64,000 bases of DNA from Chlamydiia bacterium (GTDB taxonomy: Bacteria; Chlamydiota; Chlamydiia; Chlamydiales; Rhabdochlamydiaceae), in assembly GCA_963804085.1 (NCBI GenBank), contig CAWDOQ010000010.1, positions 1 to 64,000 of the forward strand. The letters are read 5' to 3'. Below, in pieces: positions 44,745-47,932 of this stretch. Both the position numbers and the translations under genes were made by a program. The notes beneath the pieces were generated by a model. The model did not search any database. It was not told the DNA's origin and saw nothing but the letters and a program-made list of their open reading frames with translations. Position 1 is the first letter of the stretch. Each line of letters begins with the position of its first letter.

Positions 44745-45134
44745 TTAGATAGAAATTGTTTTGAGCCACTCCCTCATGAGCTTTTTGATCTGTGTTTGAT
44801 ATGGAATGCCTGACAACTGCGCTTTCTGCTTGAAAGCCTTAAGAAGAGCTGGCTCAATTTTCAGGCTAATCAACTGACTTTTTTCTTGGGTCTTCGAAAA
44901 GATCATTCGATAATTTTCTAGAAATTCAAGGATTTGACCTGGTGTCATTTTCTTGCATCGCTTCAGATACTCTTTTTGAGCATCTTTCGCTTTGCATGTA
45001 GCCGGTGGCTCGGGAATTTCGATCTTTTCGGACGTAAGCGTAAGCTTACCTTTTTTGTATGCGATGACATCTTCAAGGCCTGCTTTTAAGTCTTCAAAGA
45101 GTCTGCTTGCGCCTTTATCTTTTTTTGATCGCAT
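44745..45134 (-). CDS. Antitoxin-like hybrid protein (HigA-like N-terminus, CopG/BrnA-like C-terminus)
   Basis: SRLFEDLKAGLEDVIAYKKG then QLISLKIEPALLKAFK.KA...GIPYQTQIKKLMREW. Confidence 0.55.
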   Translation of the reverse strand: MRSKKDKGASRLFEDLKAGLEDVIAYKKGKLTLTSEKIEIPEPPATCKAKDAQKEYLKRCKKMTPGQILEFLENYRMIFSKTQEKSQLISLKIEPALLKAFKQKAQLSGIPYQTQIKKLMREWLKTISI

Positions 45135-46190
45135 CGGTAAACTCTTTCTCTTTGACAGCAGACAACTCTGCTTCAATTTGCTCGACAGATGGAAGATTGC
45201 TCTTAAGATCTTTAGGTAGCGACTCGATAACTTTCGTCTTGTAAGTGGCAACTCCTATCGACCTCTTGCTTTCAGATAAGGCATATTCTATGACAAGACG
45301 TTTGCCTGTACGGCATAAAATCATGCCGATAGCTGGCTCATCATCAGGATGTTTTAACGCGGCATTAACAGCTGCGAGGTAAAATGCCATCTTGCCCGCA
45401 TATTCCGGTTTGAACGCAGTATTTTTTAACTCTACAACAACAAACCTTCGCAATTTGTAATGATAAAACAGCAAGTCTATTAGAAATTCTTCACCGTCAA
45501 CCTCAATCTTGTATTGACGTCCAATAAATGCAAAGCCCATGCCCAGCTCTGTTAAGAACTTTTGCATATGTGCGACTAGACCATCTTCGATCATTCGCTC
45601 ATCAGCATCCTCTCTGACAGGCAAGAACTCAAAATGGTAGGGATCTTTGAGTATAGCGTTGGCCAAATCAGATTGTGCCTTCGGCATTGTTGCCTTGAAA
45701 TTAGTGATAGCCTTTCCCTGACGACTATATAAATCCGAATCTATCCAGGTCTCCAACACATCGCGCGACCAGCCATTTTCAATTGTTTTATGGGCATACC
45801 AAAGGCGTTGTTTAGCATCTTTAATCCGATCCATGAGTATCACATTATGTCCCCAGGGAATTTGCGCAACAACCTGTTGCGTAATTGCAAAATCTGGATA
45901 AGCTTCCGCAAACTGTTTCATATAGAGTAAGTTACGAGACGACAACCCCGTCATTCTTGGAAAAGCAGCCTTTAAGTCTTTGGACATACGATCTATTACC
46001 TTAGATCCCCACCCTTCTTCTTTTGCTTCCGGACAATTGTTTTTCCAATGTCCCAATAAAGCTCCAGAAGCTTCTCGTTAACACTAAGTGATGCTTTTAC
46101 TTGGGCCGTACGAATGCGTTCTTTAAGCGCATCAAGGGTCTTGGCATAACTGGAGGGAATAAGACTATTGAGCTTTTTCTTTTTAGACAT
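45115..46190 (-). CDS. YhcG/DUF1016 PD-(D/E)XK nuclease-domain protein (frameshift near 46020)
   Basis: ORF 45996-46190 (LKERIRTAQ..LYWDIGK) plus ORF 45115-46056 (WGSKVID, KDPY.FEFL, ELG.GFAFIGRQ, IDLLFYH, VVELK). Confidence 0.88.
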
Positions 46191-46284
46191 GACCGTTTTT
46201 GCAAAAAATGACGAAATCTAGAGTATAGAGATCAACTAATTTTTTCTAGAAATTCTTGGCGATCACTTGAAGAGAGAAGAGTTT

Positions 46285-46405
46285 CTAGGTTTGAGATTTG
46301 GCAGTATTCACAGATGACACCAATATCGCTGTCAGTTCTCTTTGCTCTCCACACAGCGATTCTAACATGTTCTGTGCAACGATGTTTGATTCGATAAGAA
46401 GTTCA
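46285..46405 (-). pseudogene. C-terminal remnant of a four helix bundle gene
   Basis: ELLIESNIVAQNMLESLCGEQRELTAILVSSVNTAK resembles the last helices of the family; preceded directly by CAAAAGT-CAGAATG-CAAAATG heptads. Confidence 0.55.
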
Positions 46406-46441
46406 CTTTTGCATTTTGCATTCTGACTTTTGCCTGTCCCC

Positions 46442-47210
46442 CTGGAACCCCTCTCGCAGCGCCCTTCGGTTGCGCTGTCTTCCGGGGCAGTCATGTCGGC
46501 CGGTTTCGCGGCAGCGAAACATCGGCCTCAACTCGATTCCAGACAAATGCCAAACTTTTGGCTTTCTTAACTGGAACCCCTCTCGCAGCGCCCTTCGGTT
46601 GCGCTGTCTGCCGGGGGCGGCAGTCTCGGCCGGTTTCGCGGCAGCGAAACATCGACCTCAACTCGATTTCAGACGGAAGCCAAACTTTTGGCTTTCTTAA
46701 CGGGAACCCCTCTCGCAGCGCCCTTCGGTTGCGCTGTCTGCCGGGGCGGCAGTCTCGGCCGGTTTCGCGGCAGCGAAACATCGACCTCAACTCGATTCCA
46801 GACGGAAGCCAAACTTTTGGCTTTCTTAACTGGAACCCCTCTCGCAGCGCCCTTCGGTTGCGCTGTCTGCCGGGGCGGCAGTCTCGGCCGGTTTCGCGGC
46901 AGCGAAACATCGACCTCAACTCGATTCCAGACGGAAGCCAAACTTTTGGCTTTCTTAACTGGAACCCCTCTCGCAGCGCCCTTCGGTTGCGCTGTCTGCC
47001 GGGGCGGCAGTCTCGGCCGGTTTCGCGGCAGCGAAACATCGACCTCAACTCGATTCCAGACGGAAGCCAAACTTTTGGCTTTCTTAACTGGAACCCCTCT
47101 CGCAGCCGCCCTTCGGTTGCGCTGTCTGCCGGGGCGGCAGCTCGGCCGGTTTCGCGGCAGCGAAACATCGACCTCAACTCGATTCCAGACGGAAGCCAAA
47201 CTTTTGGCTT
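46442..47210. repeat. Six tandem copies of a 129-130-bp multi-hairpin unit
   Basis: Units start at 46442, 46571, 46701, 46830, 46959 and 47088; near-identical, with the tRNA-distal copy most diverged. Confidence 0.97.
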
Positions 47211-47213
47211 CCT

Positions 47214-47253
47214 TTCTGGCCAAAAAAAAACCCACCAAAGGTGGGTTTTTTTT

Positions 47254-47262
<9 letters not shown>
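47214..47262 (-). terminator. Bidirectional intrinsic terminator downstream of tRNA-Phe
   Basis: A9-CCCACC-AAA-GGTGGG-T9 with the stem extended by TTCTGGCC/GGCCAGAA. Confidence 0.85.
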
Positions 47263-47326
<64 letters not shown>

Positions 47327-47380
47327 AAAGAAGTAGCTCTCCAAGATAGGAATCTGGCAAATTTTCTGCAAGGAAAGAAG

Positions 47381-47932
47381 TTAGCACCTATTTGTGCAAC
47401 ATGGTGATTTTCTGAGCAGATAGACACTACTGGTTACAGCCAAGGCGCCGCCAATGCCGCCTAGCCAGGCTTCTAACGCGCTTTTGAAAATAATTTTGCA
47501 AACCACTCCTCCGAATAATCCACCGGCAAGAAGGCTGGTTGTGTAGCAGGCGCATGTTCGAAACTTCTGAACGGCCCAGTTTCCCACTCGTTGATGCAGG
47601 GGTGTAAGGGTGTGCTCCAATGTAATGATATGCTTATCGCTCTCTTGTCTTGAATTTTGCACCTGGACAAGCATCCTTTGTAGTTCTTCGGGCTGTTGTT
47701 GAAGACGTGCAAGAATTTTAGTCGTTTCTTCATGGGTGGCATCAGCGTTTTGTAAATTTTCTTTATGCTTCTCCCATAGAGATTTTTCTTTAGGAATGGC
47801 TGCCAAAGCAGGATCTACGATTGCGTCAAGCTTATCATGTTTCGCTAAAGCCCCATCGAGAGCTGCAATGCTCATCTCAAGAGCGGAAGCAGGGCCTGTT
47901 AAAGGGCGATCAACTGTATTATAAAATGACAC
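47381..47932 (-). CDS. Coiled-coil protein with bilobed hydrophobic C-terminus (Inc-like)
   Basis: Heptad-rich middle; two adjacent hydrophobic segments near the C-terminus. Confidence 0.6.
   Translation of the reverse strand: MSFYNTVDRPLTGPASALEMSIAALDGALAKHDKLDAIVDPALAAIPKEKSLWEKHKENLQNADATHEETTKILARLQQQPEELQRMLVQVQNSRQESDKHIITLEHTLTPLHQRVGNWAVQKFRTCACYTTSLLAGGLFGGVVCKIIFKSALEAWLGGIGGALAVTSSVYLLRKSPCCTNRC

What the first reader, a model, noticed from the sequence alone, without database searches (positions are those of the whole stretch)
46442..47262. Six-copy structured repeat array behind tRNA-Phe carrying antisense to the tRNA 3' end
Seen: each 129-bp unit, read in the tRNA direction, folds as a multibranch. 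The closing stem CTGGAATC/GGTTCCAG encloses GGTCG..GTTTCGC-TGCC-GCGAAAC..CGGCC, CTGCCG..CGGCAG and CAGCGC..GCGCTG, and a linker hairpin AAGCCAAA..TTTGGCTT separates units. The distal copy changes a G-U pair to G-C. Each unit contains CTGGAATCGA, the exact complement of the tRNA's TCGATTCCAG. The proximal copy plus TGGCCAGAA is a split antisense copy of the last 19 nt of the tRNA. There are no unique spacers, so it is not CRISPR. Inference: a tRNA-targeted, tandemly amplifying element, or a read-through RNA able to pair with and regulate pre-tRNA; a YhcG nuclease and antitoxin relics lie just downstream.
Basis: partly seen in the sequence, partly recalled or inferred. Interest (0 to 1): 0.75.

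Follow-up and report, generated by a model that had tools for sequence, protein, structure and literature searches.

The report
Structured repeat module behind tRNA genes
Behind the phenylalanine tRNA gene sit six tandem copies of a folded, non-coding module that is tailored to the tRNA's own end; it belongs to a widespread family found behind tRNA, tmRNA and 5S rRNA genes, and its purpose is still unknown.

Summary
46442-47214 holds six 129-bp units (TRF 97% matches) behind tRNA-Phe(GAA).

It is not a one-off. The same module lies behind tRNA-Tyr, tRNA-Met, two tRNA-Leu genes and a displaced tmRNA 3' end in this genome. It also occurs in other Chlamydiota, Verrucomicrobia, Burkholderiales, Gammaproteobacteria and Patescibacteria, and behind 5S rRNA genes. 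The flanks always match the local gene.

A canonical unit reads: complement of the acceptor 3' strand, a conserved 9-bp hairpin, complement of the T-arm 3' half, a variable core, then a direct copy of the gene's last 14-19 nt.

The fold covaries: 35 of 40 pairs show double changes. It favours the tRNA-sense strand: G-U 58 against A-C 17.

The closest known things are the unexplained tRNA-linked repeats (TLRs) of E. coli. Homology to them was not detectable by model.

Best reading: a TLR-type read-through RNA module, amplified locally by recombination. A purely selfish DNA repeat is nearly as likely. Earlier agents of this scan noted analogous modules with other hairpins in other genomes.

The parts
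47254..47326 (-). tRNA-Phe(GAA) gene. Its last 19 nt (T-loop 3' part, T-stem 3' strand, acceptor 3' strand, discriminator; no CCA encoded) are the sequence that the module copies.
   Evidence: ARAGORN (47253-47327); Rfam tRNA 73.2 bits.
47222..47253 (.). Two-way terminator-like hairpin A9-CCCACC-AAA-GGTGGG-T9. Together with the tRNA acceptor 3' strand and its inverted copy it forms a 23-bp perfect palindrome arm.
   Evidence: Sequence. Sub-threshold alignments of terminator-bearing Rfam families to it. Not listed by the simple scan.
47214..47222 (-). Complement of the tRNA's acceptor 3' strand plus discriminator (TGGCCAGAA on the tRNA strand). Present only in the proximal unit.
47189..47213 (-). 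Conserved 9-bp hairpin with a 4-nt loop (AG-N-AAGCCAA-NAGT-TTGGCTT-N'-CGT), proximal copy. One copy heads each unit.
   Evidence: Outer pairs covary: column 3/29 shows CG 16, GC 7, AU 4, GU 2.
47088..47213 (-). Unit 6 (proximal): hairpin, then closing stem CTGGAATC/GGTTCCAG around hairpins P2, P3 and P4.
   Evidence: R1 140.6 bits; alignment.
46959..47084 (-). Unit 5
   Evidence: R1 151.7 bits; fold.
46830..46955 (-). Unit 4 (same R1 score as unit 5)
   Evidence: R1 151.7 bits.
46701..46826 (-). Unit 3
   Evidence: R1 150.6 bits.
46571..46697 (-). Unit 2 (antisense 10-mer mutated to CTGAAATCGA; one extra C in P3)
   Evidence: R1 143 bits; alignment.
46442..46567 (-). Unit 1 (distal, most diverged, 91% to unit 2): U-G to C-G change in P2, degraded P3 and hairpin.
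46402..46440 (-). Flanking repeat motif (GTCAGAATGCAAAATGCA...) that also lies just beyond the module at other tRNA/tmRNA loci. Whether it belongs to the module is open.
   Evidence: 15 hits in the genome.

Best explanation
The array is a locally amplified member of a widespread family of tRNA-linked-repeat (TLR)-type modules. These sit just after the end, and usually after the first terminator, of stable-RNA genes: tRNA, tmRNA and 5S rRNA.

A canonical unit is a foldback built on the gene's own last ~19 nt. In order, it holds the Watson-Crick complement of the acceptor 3' strand, a conserved 9-bp hairpin, the complement of the T-stem 3' strand plus part of the T-loop, one to three variable hairpins, and a direct copy of the gene's 3' end, often with a second terminator.

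Shown:
- this architecture;
- its tailoring to each gene;
- a conserved, covarying fold that favours the tRNA-sense strand;
- gain and loss at the DNA level, with the insert flanked by long direct repeats.

Inferred:
- The units are transcribed by read-through of the tRNA terminator.
- Their terminal helix imitates the end of the tRNA, so the tRNA end-maturation enzymes (RNase P at the 5' side; RNase Z, RNase E or exonucleases at the 3' side) would cut out stable unit-length RNAs. Six could arise per read-through transcript here.
- The array grows and shrinks by unequal recombination between units.
- Matching of the flanks is kept up by gene conversion from the neighbouring gene end and by palindrome-templated correction.

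What the released RNA does is not known. In this window the internal units have lost the acceptor segments and the terminator and keep only the T-arm part of the foldback.
For: Array, fold and antisense segments.

Same module at 6 loci of the own genome. All 12 R1 matches lie behind a tRNA or a tmRNA 3' end.

In relatives, 9 of 11 fetched loci have a tRNA or tmRNA directly upstream on the same strand. The 2 others lie 3.7-4.4 kb downstream of such a locus.

Of the 122 loci returned by a pattern scan of species genomes, 50 have the hairpin less than 400 nt downstream of a tRNA or tmRNA on the same strand (48 if two duplicate loci are counted once), in several phyla. Seven of 20 checked gammaproteobacterial loci have a 5S rRNA gene 100-200 nt upstream.

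Tailoring statistics.

The 5' arm is the complement of the 3' strand, not a copy of the 5' strand. The tmRNA G3-U70 pair becomes A-U. T-loop positions are complemented: GT gives AC, CT gives AG.

Covariation on 36 aligned units: 93.3% of cells paired, 35 of 40 pairs with changes on both sides, 0 of 500 shuffles as high, covariation 0.377 against at most 0.055 for slid controls.

Strand: G-U 58 against A-C 17. The sense strand folds better in 21 of 23 units, by 3.05 kcal/mol on average.

No sigma-70-like promoter on either strand in 46200-47500.

Cupriavidus tRNA-Ser, among the 30 loci examined: 6 filled, 2 decayed, and at least 2 empty sites that keep the same terminator. In L164 the insert is flanked by a perfect direct repeat of about 57 nt, made of the tRNA 3' end plus the terminator.

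A relative has one unit at tRNA-Phe where the window has six.

E. coli TLRs are co-transcribed and processed, and the 3' repeat is proposed to direct RNase E cleavage (PMC8144298, passages read).
Against: No expression data. No run holds more than 0.11 of the sampled words, and only contigs could be laid.

A strong terminator lies between the tRNA and the units, so read-through may be rare.

The internal units of this array lack the acceptor copy, so they cannot form the full tRNA-end mimic.

The helix extends into T-loop positions and removes G-U identity pairs. That looks more like DNA-level inverted duplication than a selected tRNA mimic.

The module has decayed in some lineages (L160, L161, L166) and is patchy: 6 of 120 other genomes of the order and 7 of 24 in the family by pattern. 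That fits a dispensable element.

The covariation alignment was fitted to the model's structure. G-U bias is also expected for a folded single DNA strand. The units are related, so the tests overstate.

The cross-phylum set was found by searching for the hairpin sequence itself, so its apparent invariance is partly ascertainment. Variant hairpins exist.
Confidence: 0.45

Rival explanations
1. A selfish or neutral DNA repeat: a small non-autonomous element that lodges at the ends of stable-RNA genes and spreads within and between genomes. Possible routes are Campbell-type recombination of a small circular or tandem form carrying a copy of the gene end, or folded single-stranded DNA handled by a recombinase or HUH enzyme acting in trans. 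The hairpin would be a protein binding site, and any transcript would be a by-product.
For: - The same 18-nt hairpin, and cores that R1 aligns together, occur in several phyla but patchily.
- Several loci per genome.
- The same core type is attached to tRNA-Phe here and to tmRNA in relatives, with only the outer stem changed.
- Different core types sit at the same tRNA in different genomes.
- Filled, empty and decayed sites occur, with direct repeats of about 57 nt.
- Tandem amplification.
- Recombinant junctions occur, such as a tRNA-Tyr 3' half fused to the core through CGCCCC.
- The arms are exact complements, as in DNA palindromes.
Against: - No gene travels with it.
- The own genome has only 3 tyrosine recombinases (one inside the tmRNA island), 1 Y1 transposase and 1 IS110 transposase, none adjacent, and no reverse transcriptase found at 91% completeness.
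- The one unit tested (Cupriavidus tRNA-Ser unit) has no match on 72,556 plasmids or 50,697 phage records.
- How the flanks would be re-tailored at a new gene is not explained by any known transposition chemistry.
- Conserved purine-rich junctions and GNRA-type loops (GAGA, GAAA) are more typical of RNA.
Confidence: 0.35
2. One reading: a cis-acting antisense trailer. In read-through transcripts the two complementary segments pair with the 3' 19 nt of the upstream tRNA. This unfolds the acceptor and T stems and blocks or redirects maturation of that pre-tRNA.
For: 19 of 19 nt are complementary in the proximal unit, and 10 of 10 in 5 of 6 units. The complement is directly continuous with the terminator palindrome, so the pairing would extend the terminator helix. 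The arrangement of gene end, complement and gene-end copy resembles attenuator-type alternative pairings.
Against: - In canonical units the complement has its own partner, the downstream direct copy, inside the unit.
- The complement is often degenerate while the direct copy stays exact (for example L012).
- This idea needs neither the conserved hairpin nor the covarying core.
- A tRNA folds before the trailer is made.
Confidence: 0.1
3. Scars of integrative elements: leftover attL/attR repeats and attP arms of genomic islands that integrated at tRNA or tmRNA 3' ends and were later deleted.
For: Direct repeats of the tRNA 3' end are what integrases leave. This genome has a ~10.3-kb island with an integrase in its tmRNA gene and further tmRNA-end copies. 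YhcG and antitoxin-like relics lie downstream of the array.
Against: - At the tmRNA, the island's repeat and the module are separate things. The module stayed with the displaced original 3' end.
- The module also follows 5S rRNA genes; I do not know 5S to be an integrase target (from recall).
- The inverted copy split by a conserved hairpin, and the covarying core shared across phyla and across different tRNAs, are not expected of att scars.
- There is no second copy of the tRNA-Phe 19-mer (up to 3 mismatches) in the window.
Confidence: 0.05

Closest known systems
tRNA-linked repeats (TLRs) of Escherichia coli: the RtT/rttR units behind tyrT-tyrV and the rrA/rrB/rrF units behind 5S rRNA
   Same: - Position directly behind a tRNA or 5S gene, in the same orientation.
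- Each unit ends in a copy of the last 18-19 bp of that gene (PMC8144298 passages).
- Tandem iteration behind tyrV (seen).
- Placement between two terminators in rrnB.
- The E. coli tyrT units also begin with the complement of the T-arm 3' half (GGGGAAGGAT against ATCCTTCCCC) followed by GAGAAG, as in several units here.
- Short local similarities: L078 against rrB, 22 nt, z 6.5, 0 of 300 shuffles; L023 against the tyrT unit, z 5.6; a window unit against the rttR unit, z 2.9, 8 of 300.
- Function unknown in both.
   Different: - The E. coli units have no AAGCCAA/TTGGCTT hairpin and no complement of the acceptor strand.
- The Rfam scans listed no match to the units, so not its RtT family either if it is in the library (recalled) (E up to 10 on the window stretch, up to 0.1 on nine other loci).
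- My model R1 does not match the E. coli loci at E up to 1.
- A core-only profile does not match them either.
- blastn of a gammaproteobacterial unit finds nothing in 5,426 E. coli genomes.
- Homology is therefore not established.
Direct repeats (attL/attR) of islands and prophages integrated in tRNA and tmRNA genes
   Same: A downstream direct copy of the gene's 3' end; tandem accretion at such sites.
   Different: The unit is about 100-130 bp with no integrase. It holds an additional inverted copy split by a hairpin, also occurs at 5S rRNA genes, and is separate from the att repeat of the real tmRNA island in this genome.
REP/BIME (REPIN) palindromic repeats with their RAYT transposases (named from recall)
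   Same: Short non-coding hairpin repeats at the 3' ends of transcription units, in clusters, varying between strains.
   Different: REPs are not tailored to the neighbouring gene. The single Y1 transposase gene of this genome (C17:57827-58168) is not next to any unit, and no hairpin copy lies on that contig.
tRNA top-half mimics: the tRNA-like domain of tmRNA, viral tRNA-like structures, and the retroviral primer binding site (18 nt complementary to a tRNA 3' end) (named from recall)
   Same: A helix made from the acceptor and T-stem sequences of a particular tRNA, and 18-19 nt of complementarity to a tRNA 3' end.
   Different: There is no T-loop, because the helix runs through it. G-U identity pairs are replaced by Watson-Crick pairs. 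The complement lacks CCA, so it copies the gene, not the mature tRNA. No reverse transcriptase was found.

Membership tests
E. coli-type tRNA-linked repeats (TLR) | Lies immediately downstream of a tRNA or rRNA gene in the same operon and orientation | tested here: met
   all 12 own-genome units lie behind a tRNA or a tmRNA 3' end; 9 of 11 loci in relatives.
E. coli-type tRNA-linked repeats (TLR) | 18-19 bp at the 3' end of each repeat identical to the 3' end of the upstream gene | tested here: inconclusive
   Units of the window array end in only TTCCAGTT (8 nt of sense copy). The full 19 nt is present only as the split complement. Canonical family members do meet the feature: own tRNA-Met 17 nt, L012 16 nt, L062 19 nt with CCA.
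E. coli-type tRNA-linked repeats (TLR) | Sequence or structure homology to RtT (Rfam family, accession recalled as RF00391) or to the rrB units | tested here: not met
   No Rfam match to the units. R1 gives no hit on L155 or L156. nhmmer with the core profile gives no hit. Only short local similarities were found.
CRISPR array | Short direct repeats separated by unique spacers of similar length | tested here: not met
   Units abut head to tail with no unique sequence between them.
att repeats of tRNA-integrating islands | Direct repeat of the tRNA 3' end bounding a segment that carries, or once carried, an integrase | tested here: not met
   There is no second copy of the tRNA-Phe 19-mer in the window and no integrase match on this contig. 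The module is distinct from the tmRNA island's repeat.
Structured RNA gene or element (general) | Conserved secondary structure with compensatory changes, and strand asymmetry of wobble pairs | tested here: met
   Caveats: the alignment was fitted to the model and the sequences are related.
Structured RNA gene or element (general) | Evidence of a transcript | not testable with these tools
   No run holds the stretch, and only contigs were available.
Type III toxin-antitoxin RNA repeats (ToxI-like; named from recall) | Short tandem RNA repeats directly upstream of a ToxN-type endoribonuclease gene | tested here: not met
   Units are 129 nt. The downstream ORFs are YhcG (a PD-(D/E)XK nuclease, split) and a CopG/BrnA-like ORF. 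Other loci with the module have unrelated neighbours.

The most novel reading that the evidence does not exclude
The module is a new kind of horizontally spreading element, or a new widespread class of non-coding RNA. It uses the 3' end of any stable-RNA gene (tRNA, tmRNA, 5S rRNA) as a landing pad. There it rebuilds both an inverted and a direct copy of that gene's last ~19 nt by templated DNA repair or copying. If so, it would be the general mechanism behind the tRNA-linked repeats that have stood unexplained in E. coli since 1978, and behind the analogous hairpin modules this scan has met in archaea and other bacteria.
Probability: 0.3. Interest if true: 0.85.

Novelty: new variant of a known kind. 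Interest (0 to 1): 0.6.

Why it matters
TLRs have been known in E. coli since 1978 without an accepted function or origin (PMC8144298, passages read). Two full-text searches for 'tRNA-linked repeats' and rttR/RtT found only 2 and 8 papers, and none that I read describes a family outside enterobacteria.

Here the same kind of module has a recognisable hairpin and a covarying fold. It is found behind tRNA, tmRNA and 5S rRNA genes in at least five named groups of bacteria. Filled, empty and decayed sites occur within a single genus.

This turns an old curiosity into a tractable comparative and experimental problem. Cultivable carriers exist (Cupriavidus, Herbaspirillum, Alteromonas-type bacteria). 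The module's borders are defined to the base. There are two clear readings to test: a processed read-through RNA, or a selfish DNA repeat.

It also matters for annotation. These modules create pseudo-att repeats and tRNA-end copies that can be mistaken for island borders.

Tried and rejected
1. Rfam, all 4227 families. E up to 10 on 46000-47600 and E up to 0.1 on nine other loci gave no family for the units. Only sub-threshold hits on the terminator and a sub-threshold sX4 hit over tRNA-Ser appeared.

2. Reads.
- No run holds more than 0.11 of the sampled words.
- Laying four soil and wetland contig sets showed related sequence.
- One 6,662-nt contig passes from 46488 to 47141, that is with one unit, and another joins 46441 to 46959.
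- Contigs collapse tandem repeats, so this says nothing firm about copy number or expression.

3. blastn of units against E. coli genomes, plasmids and phages: no match.

4. Homology to E. coli TLRs by covariance model and by profile HMM: no hit.

5. RNAalifold on a plain MAFFT alignment of 23 diverse units recovered only the conserved hairpin. The full fold needed a model-guided alignment.

6. Reverse-transcription origin, with the mature tRNA as primer or template. Rejected because the complement lacks CCA and no RVT_1 match was found in the genome, which is 91% complete.

7. Aminoacylatable tRNA mimic. Rejected because the 5' arm is a plain complement that removes the tmRNA G3-U70 pair and the T-loop is paired away.

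8. RAYT or IS110 as driver. One gene of each is in the genome, but neither is near a unit.

9. The simple promoter and terminator scan found no promoter. It missed the obvious terminator at 47231-47253, so its negatives are weak.

10. Automatic finding of unit ends by self-complementarity overshot or undershot for many units. Ends were then set by eye from printed rulers.

The units were then addressed by coordinates only.
Full report
**What is in the window**

tRNA-Phe(GAA) lies on the minus strand at 47254-47326. On the tRNA strand it is followed by four things:
- a two-way terminator-like hairpin, A9-CCCACC-TTT-GGTGGG-T9 when read on that strand;
- TGGCCAGAA, the exact complement of the tRNA's acceptor 3' strand plus discriminator;
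- a 25-nt hairpin segment;
- CTGGAATCGA, the exact complement of the preceding 10 nt of the tRNA (T-loop 3' part and T-stem 3' strand).

From there a 129-bp unit repeats six times, 46442-47214 (TRF: 97% matches, score 1435).

Each unit has two parts. The first is the hairpin, AG-N-AAGCCAA-NAGT-TTGGCTT-N'-CGT. The second is a multibranch closed by CTGGAATC/GGTTCCAG and holding three hairpins (fold, alignment).

Details to correct in the finding:
- The exact 10-mer is in 5 of 6 units.
- The distal unit turns a U-G pair into C-G.

Five of the six units differ from each other, so the array is not a simple assembly collapse. The exact copy number could not be checked.

**It is a family, and the flanks follow the gene**

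The answer is a clear yes.

In the same genome the hairpin and a related core follow five other genes:
- tRNA-Tyr, with units carrying GTGTGACTCGA, the complement of TCGAGTCACAC in the T-arm of tRNA-Tyr;
- tRNA-Met;
- tRNA-Leu(TAG);
- tRNA-Leu(TAA);
- a displaced copy of the tmRNA 3' end.

A covariance model built from seven units (R1) finds 12 units at these 6 loci in the genome and nowhere else at E up to 0.01.

The single-unit loci show the full design. The tRNA-Met unit is an example. After the terminator come:
- the complement of the acceptor 3' strand;
- the hairpin;
- the complement of the T-arm 3' half;
- two small hairpins;
- an exact 17-nt direct copy of the tRNA's 3' end.

The tRNA-Leu(TAG) unit is minimal. 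It has the complement, the hairpin, TAGGAC-GAGA-GTCCTA and the acceptor copy.

Over 44 distinct proximal units from many genomes, two measures show the tailoring:
- The left flank has 6 or more nt of exact complement to its own acceptor end in 24 of 44, against 2.6% with other tRNA types.
- The right flank has 5 or more nt to its own T-arm in 28 of 44, against 9.8%.

The 5' arm is a complement of the 3' strand, not a copy of the tRNA's 5' strand:
- In tmRNA-linked units the G3-U70 pair is replaced by A-U.
- Variable T-loop positions are complemented.
- The complement does not include CCA, so the copied template is the gene, not the mature tRNA.

**Distribution**

Within 40 relatives, 8 genomes hold the hairpin pattern: 7 of 24 in the same family, plus one hit in another family of the order that lies with no tRNA nearby and looks like chance.

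R1 finds the module in 6 of 120 other genomes sampled from the order. The filters were strict, so this is a floor.

Of 11 loci fetched from those relatives, 9 have a tRNA or tmRNA directly upstream on the same strand. The 2 orphans lie 3.7-4.4 kb downstream of such a locus, as expected if an island was inserted in between.

- In 50 of them the hairpin lies less than 400 nt downstream of a tRNA or tmRNA on the same strand; two of these repeat loci already fetched from G014, so 48 are distinct.
- These include records labelled Chlamydiales, Parachlamydiales, Rhabdochlamydiaceae and Simkaniaceae. This is the basis for placing the window in Chlamydiota.
- They also include records labelled Verrucomicrobia, Cupriavidus, Herbaspirillum, Betaproteobacteria, Gammaproteobacteria, Moranbacteria, Kerfeldbacteria and Elusimicrobia, with the same architecture.
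- In 7 of 20 further gammaproteobacterial loci that I checked, a 5S rRNA gene lies 100-200 nt upstream on the same strand. In 3 of these 7 (L038, L064, L071) the unit ends in a copy of the 5S 3' end followed by a second terminator.

Caveat: this set was found by searching for the hairpin sequence, so the hairpin's invariance is partly ascertainment. Variant hairpins with compensated stems exist.

**The fold is conserved and favours the tRNA strand**

A plain MAFFT alignment gave only the hairpin. The model-guided alignment of 36 units (34 distinct) gave these results:
- 93.3% of 1136 cells form standard pairs.
- 35 of 40 pairs have changes on both sides.
- No shuffle out of 500 reached the observed values.
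- The covariation score was 0.377, against at most 0.055 when partners are slid by 1-3 columns.

Wobble pairs are asymmetric. There are 58 G-U cells against 17 A-C cells; outside the window's own units the count is 43 against 13.

The tRNA-sense strand folds better in 21 of 23 units, by 3.05 kcal/mol on average.

These figures lean towards the model's structure and count related sequences. They also cannot tell an RNA from a folded single DNA strand.

No sigma-70-like promoter is seen on either strand around the array. That scan also missed the obvious terminator, so it is weak.

**DNA-level behaviour**

At one tRNA-Ser gene I examined 30 loci from Cupriavidus species:
- Six are filled sites: L157, L158, L162, L163, L164 and L166. 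L166 has a partly decayed hairpin.
- Two are decayed or truncated: L160 and L161.
- At least two are empty sites that keep the same terminator: L159 and L165.
- Most of the remaining 20 have unrelated DNA after the tRNA.

In L164 the foreign part (complement, hairpin, core) is flanked by a perfect direct repeat of about 57 nt, made of the tRNA 3' end plus the terminator. This is what integration or excision by recombination within that repeat would leave.

Arrays occur in three forms:
- with the gene-end copy and terminator in every unit (131 bp x 4 behind a tRNA-Leu);
- with a shortened junction (88-bp and 87-bp units);
- as here, with neither the acceptor copy nor the terminator.

A relative has a single unit of the window's type behind its tRNA-Phe, already with a shortened direct copy. 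So the sixfold amplification is local and recent; TRF reports 97% matches across the array.

The window's core is close to the cores behind tmRNA in two other genomes. Only the outer bases of the closing stem differ. Different core types sit behind the same tRNA in different genomes. Cores therefore move between stable-RNA genes, or the flanks are rebuilt.

In this genome a ~10.3-kb island with a tyrosine integrase split the tmRNA gene. The module stayed with the displaced original 3' end. This shows that the module is not itself the island's att repeat.

**What it most likely is**

I commit to a TLR-type module. In this reading it is a structured trailer, transcribed by read-through, whose terminal helix is built from the gene's own end. 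The enzymes that trim the tRNA would then also release the unit. The array would be a local amplification by unequal recombination.

Shown:
- the architecture;
- the tailoring to each gene;
- covariation of the fold;
- the strand bias;
- gain and loss at the DNA level.

Inferred:
- transcription of the units;
- their processing;
- any function.

The E. coli precedent supports the inference. TLRs behind tyrT and behind 5S rRNA are co-transcribed and processed, and their 3' repeat is thought to guide RNase E. This rests on passages of PMC8144298. A preprint only restates that the mode of action of rttR is unknown (passages read).

Almost as likely is that the module is a selfish or neutral DNA repeat and that any RNA is a by-product. 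In its favour are patchiness, decay, exact palindromic arms, long direct repeats and recurrence across phyla. Against it are the lack of any linked enzyme and the lack of a known chemistry that would tailor the flanks. My suggestion of gene conversion plus palindrome-templated correction is inference only.

It does not explain the internal partner, the hairpin or the core.

**Relation to what is known**

By position, orientation, the copy of the gene's end, tandem iteration and placement between two terminators, this is the same kind of thing as the E. coli TLRs.

The E. coli tyrT units even start with the complement of the T-arm 3' half followed by GAGAAG, as several units here do.

Homology is not established:
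- There is no Rfam hit.
- R1 gives no hit.
- The core profile gives no hit.
- blastn gives no hit.
- Only short local similarities were found: best z 6.5 and 5.6 among 27 comparisons.

The E. coli units also lack the hairpin and the acceptor complement.

Earlier agents of this scan noted analogous modules that copy tRNA ends, with other hairpins, in archaea, Patescibacteria and Acidobacteria-type genomes. They also pointed to TLRs. None shares sequence with this one.

I rate it a new variant of a known but unexplained kind.

**Limits**

- There are no expression data and no read-level copy number.
- The cross-phylum set was seeded by the hairpin.
- The covariation alignment was fitted to a model.
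- Supplements of the papers were not consulted.
- The 1978 and 1999 TLR papers were not seen, only cited through PMC8144298.

Noticed in passing
window 46402-46440 and 58975; also G000 C8:4736/4798, C23:6976, 7776/7843, 8134/8196, 55898, C16:88734, 93969, C12:18251: A second repeat family (GTCAGAATGCAAAATGCAGAAGTGAAG-like) has 15 hits with up to 2 mismatches in the genome. The hits often form inverted pairs and lie directly beside tRNA or tmRNA 3'-end copies or beyond the module. The same motif follows a tmRNA-linked unit in another chlamydial MAG (L056). It could be part of the module's far border or the end of an integrating element.
   Followed up: partly
G000 C16:77817-88547: The tmRNA gene is followed about 10.3 kb downstream by an exact 21-nt copy of its 3' end. 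A tyrosine integrase gene lies in between (C16:85895-86383). This is a classical island in the tmRNA gene. Further tmRNA-end-like copies lie at C16:93969, C23:55898 and C12:18251.
   Followed up: partly
window 44745-46190: The YhcG-type PD-(D/E)XK nuclease is split over two overlapping minus-strand ORFs, probably by a frameshift: 45115-46056 holds YhcG_C plus most of DUF1016_N, and 45996-46190 holds the start of DUF1016_N. The ORF at 44745-45251 has a CopG/BrnA antitoxin-like C-terminus. These are possibly relics of an island at tRNA-Phe.
   Followed up: partly
L038, L064, L068, L071, L085, L111, L141 (Gammaproteobacteria): The same hairpin heads units that follow 5S rRNA genes at the ends of rRNA operons. 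They sit between a first and a second terminator, and in L038, L064 and L071 the unit ends in a copy of the 5S 3' end. L085 has three such units in tandem. This parallels the E. coli rrA/rrB/rrF units.
   Followed up: partly
L189:500-860 (G013 C3): A 3' half of tRNA-Tyr is fused directly to hairpin P3 of a core through the shared letters CGCCCC. It is followed by units whose linker hairpin has a fully compensated different stem (GTGCCA/TGGCAC). This is evidence of recombination among these repeats and of selection on the hairpin's shape.
   Followed up: no
G000 C17:57827-58168 and C17:105649-106089: The genome has one Y1 (HUH) transposase gene, about 280 bp from tRNA-Ala(GGC) at C17:58448-58522, and one IS110-family transposase gene. 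Neither is near a unit.
   Followed up: no
L035 (record labelled Cryobacterium), behind tRNA-Thr: Here the hairpin sequence, flanked by A and T runs, sits 6 nt after the tRNA like a terminator. It is followed by tandem repeats, each ending in a related hairpin. Possibly a distant or convergent form.
   Followed up: no
G000 C10:201448-201542: ARAGORN calls overlapping tRNA-Arg genes on both strands. The plus-strand call (tcg, 79 nt) looks like an artefact of the minus-strand tRNA-Arg(acg).
   Followed up: no
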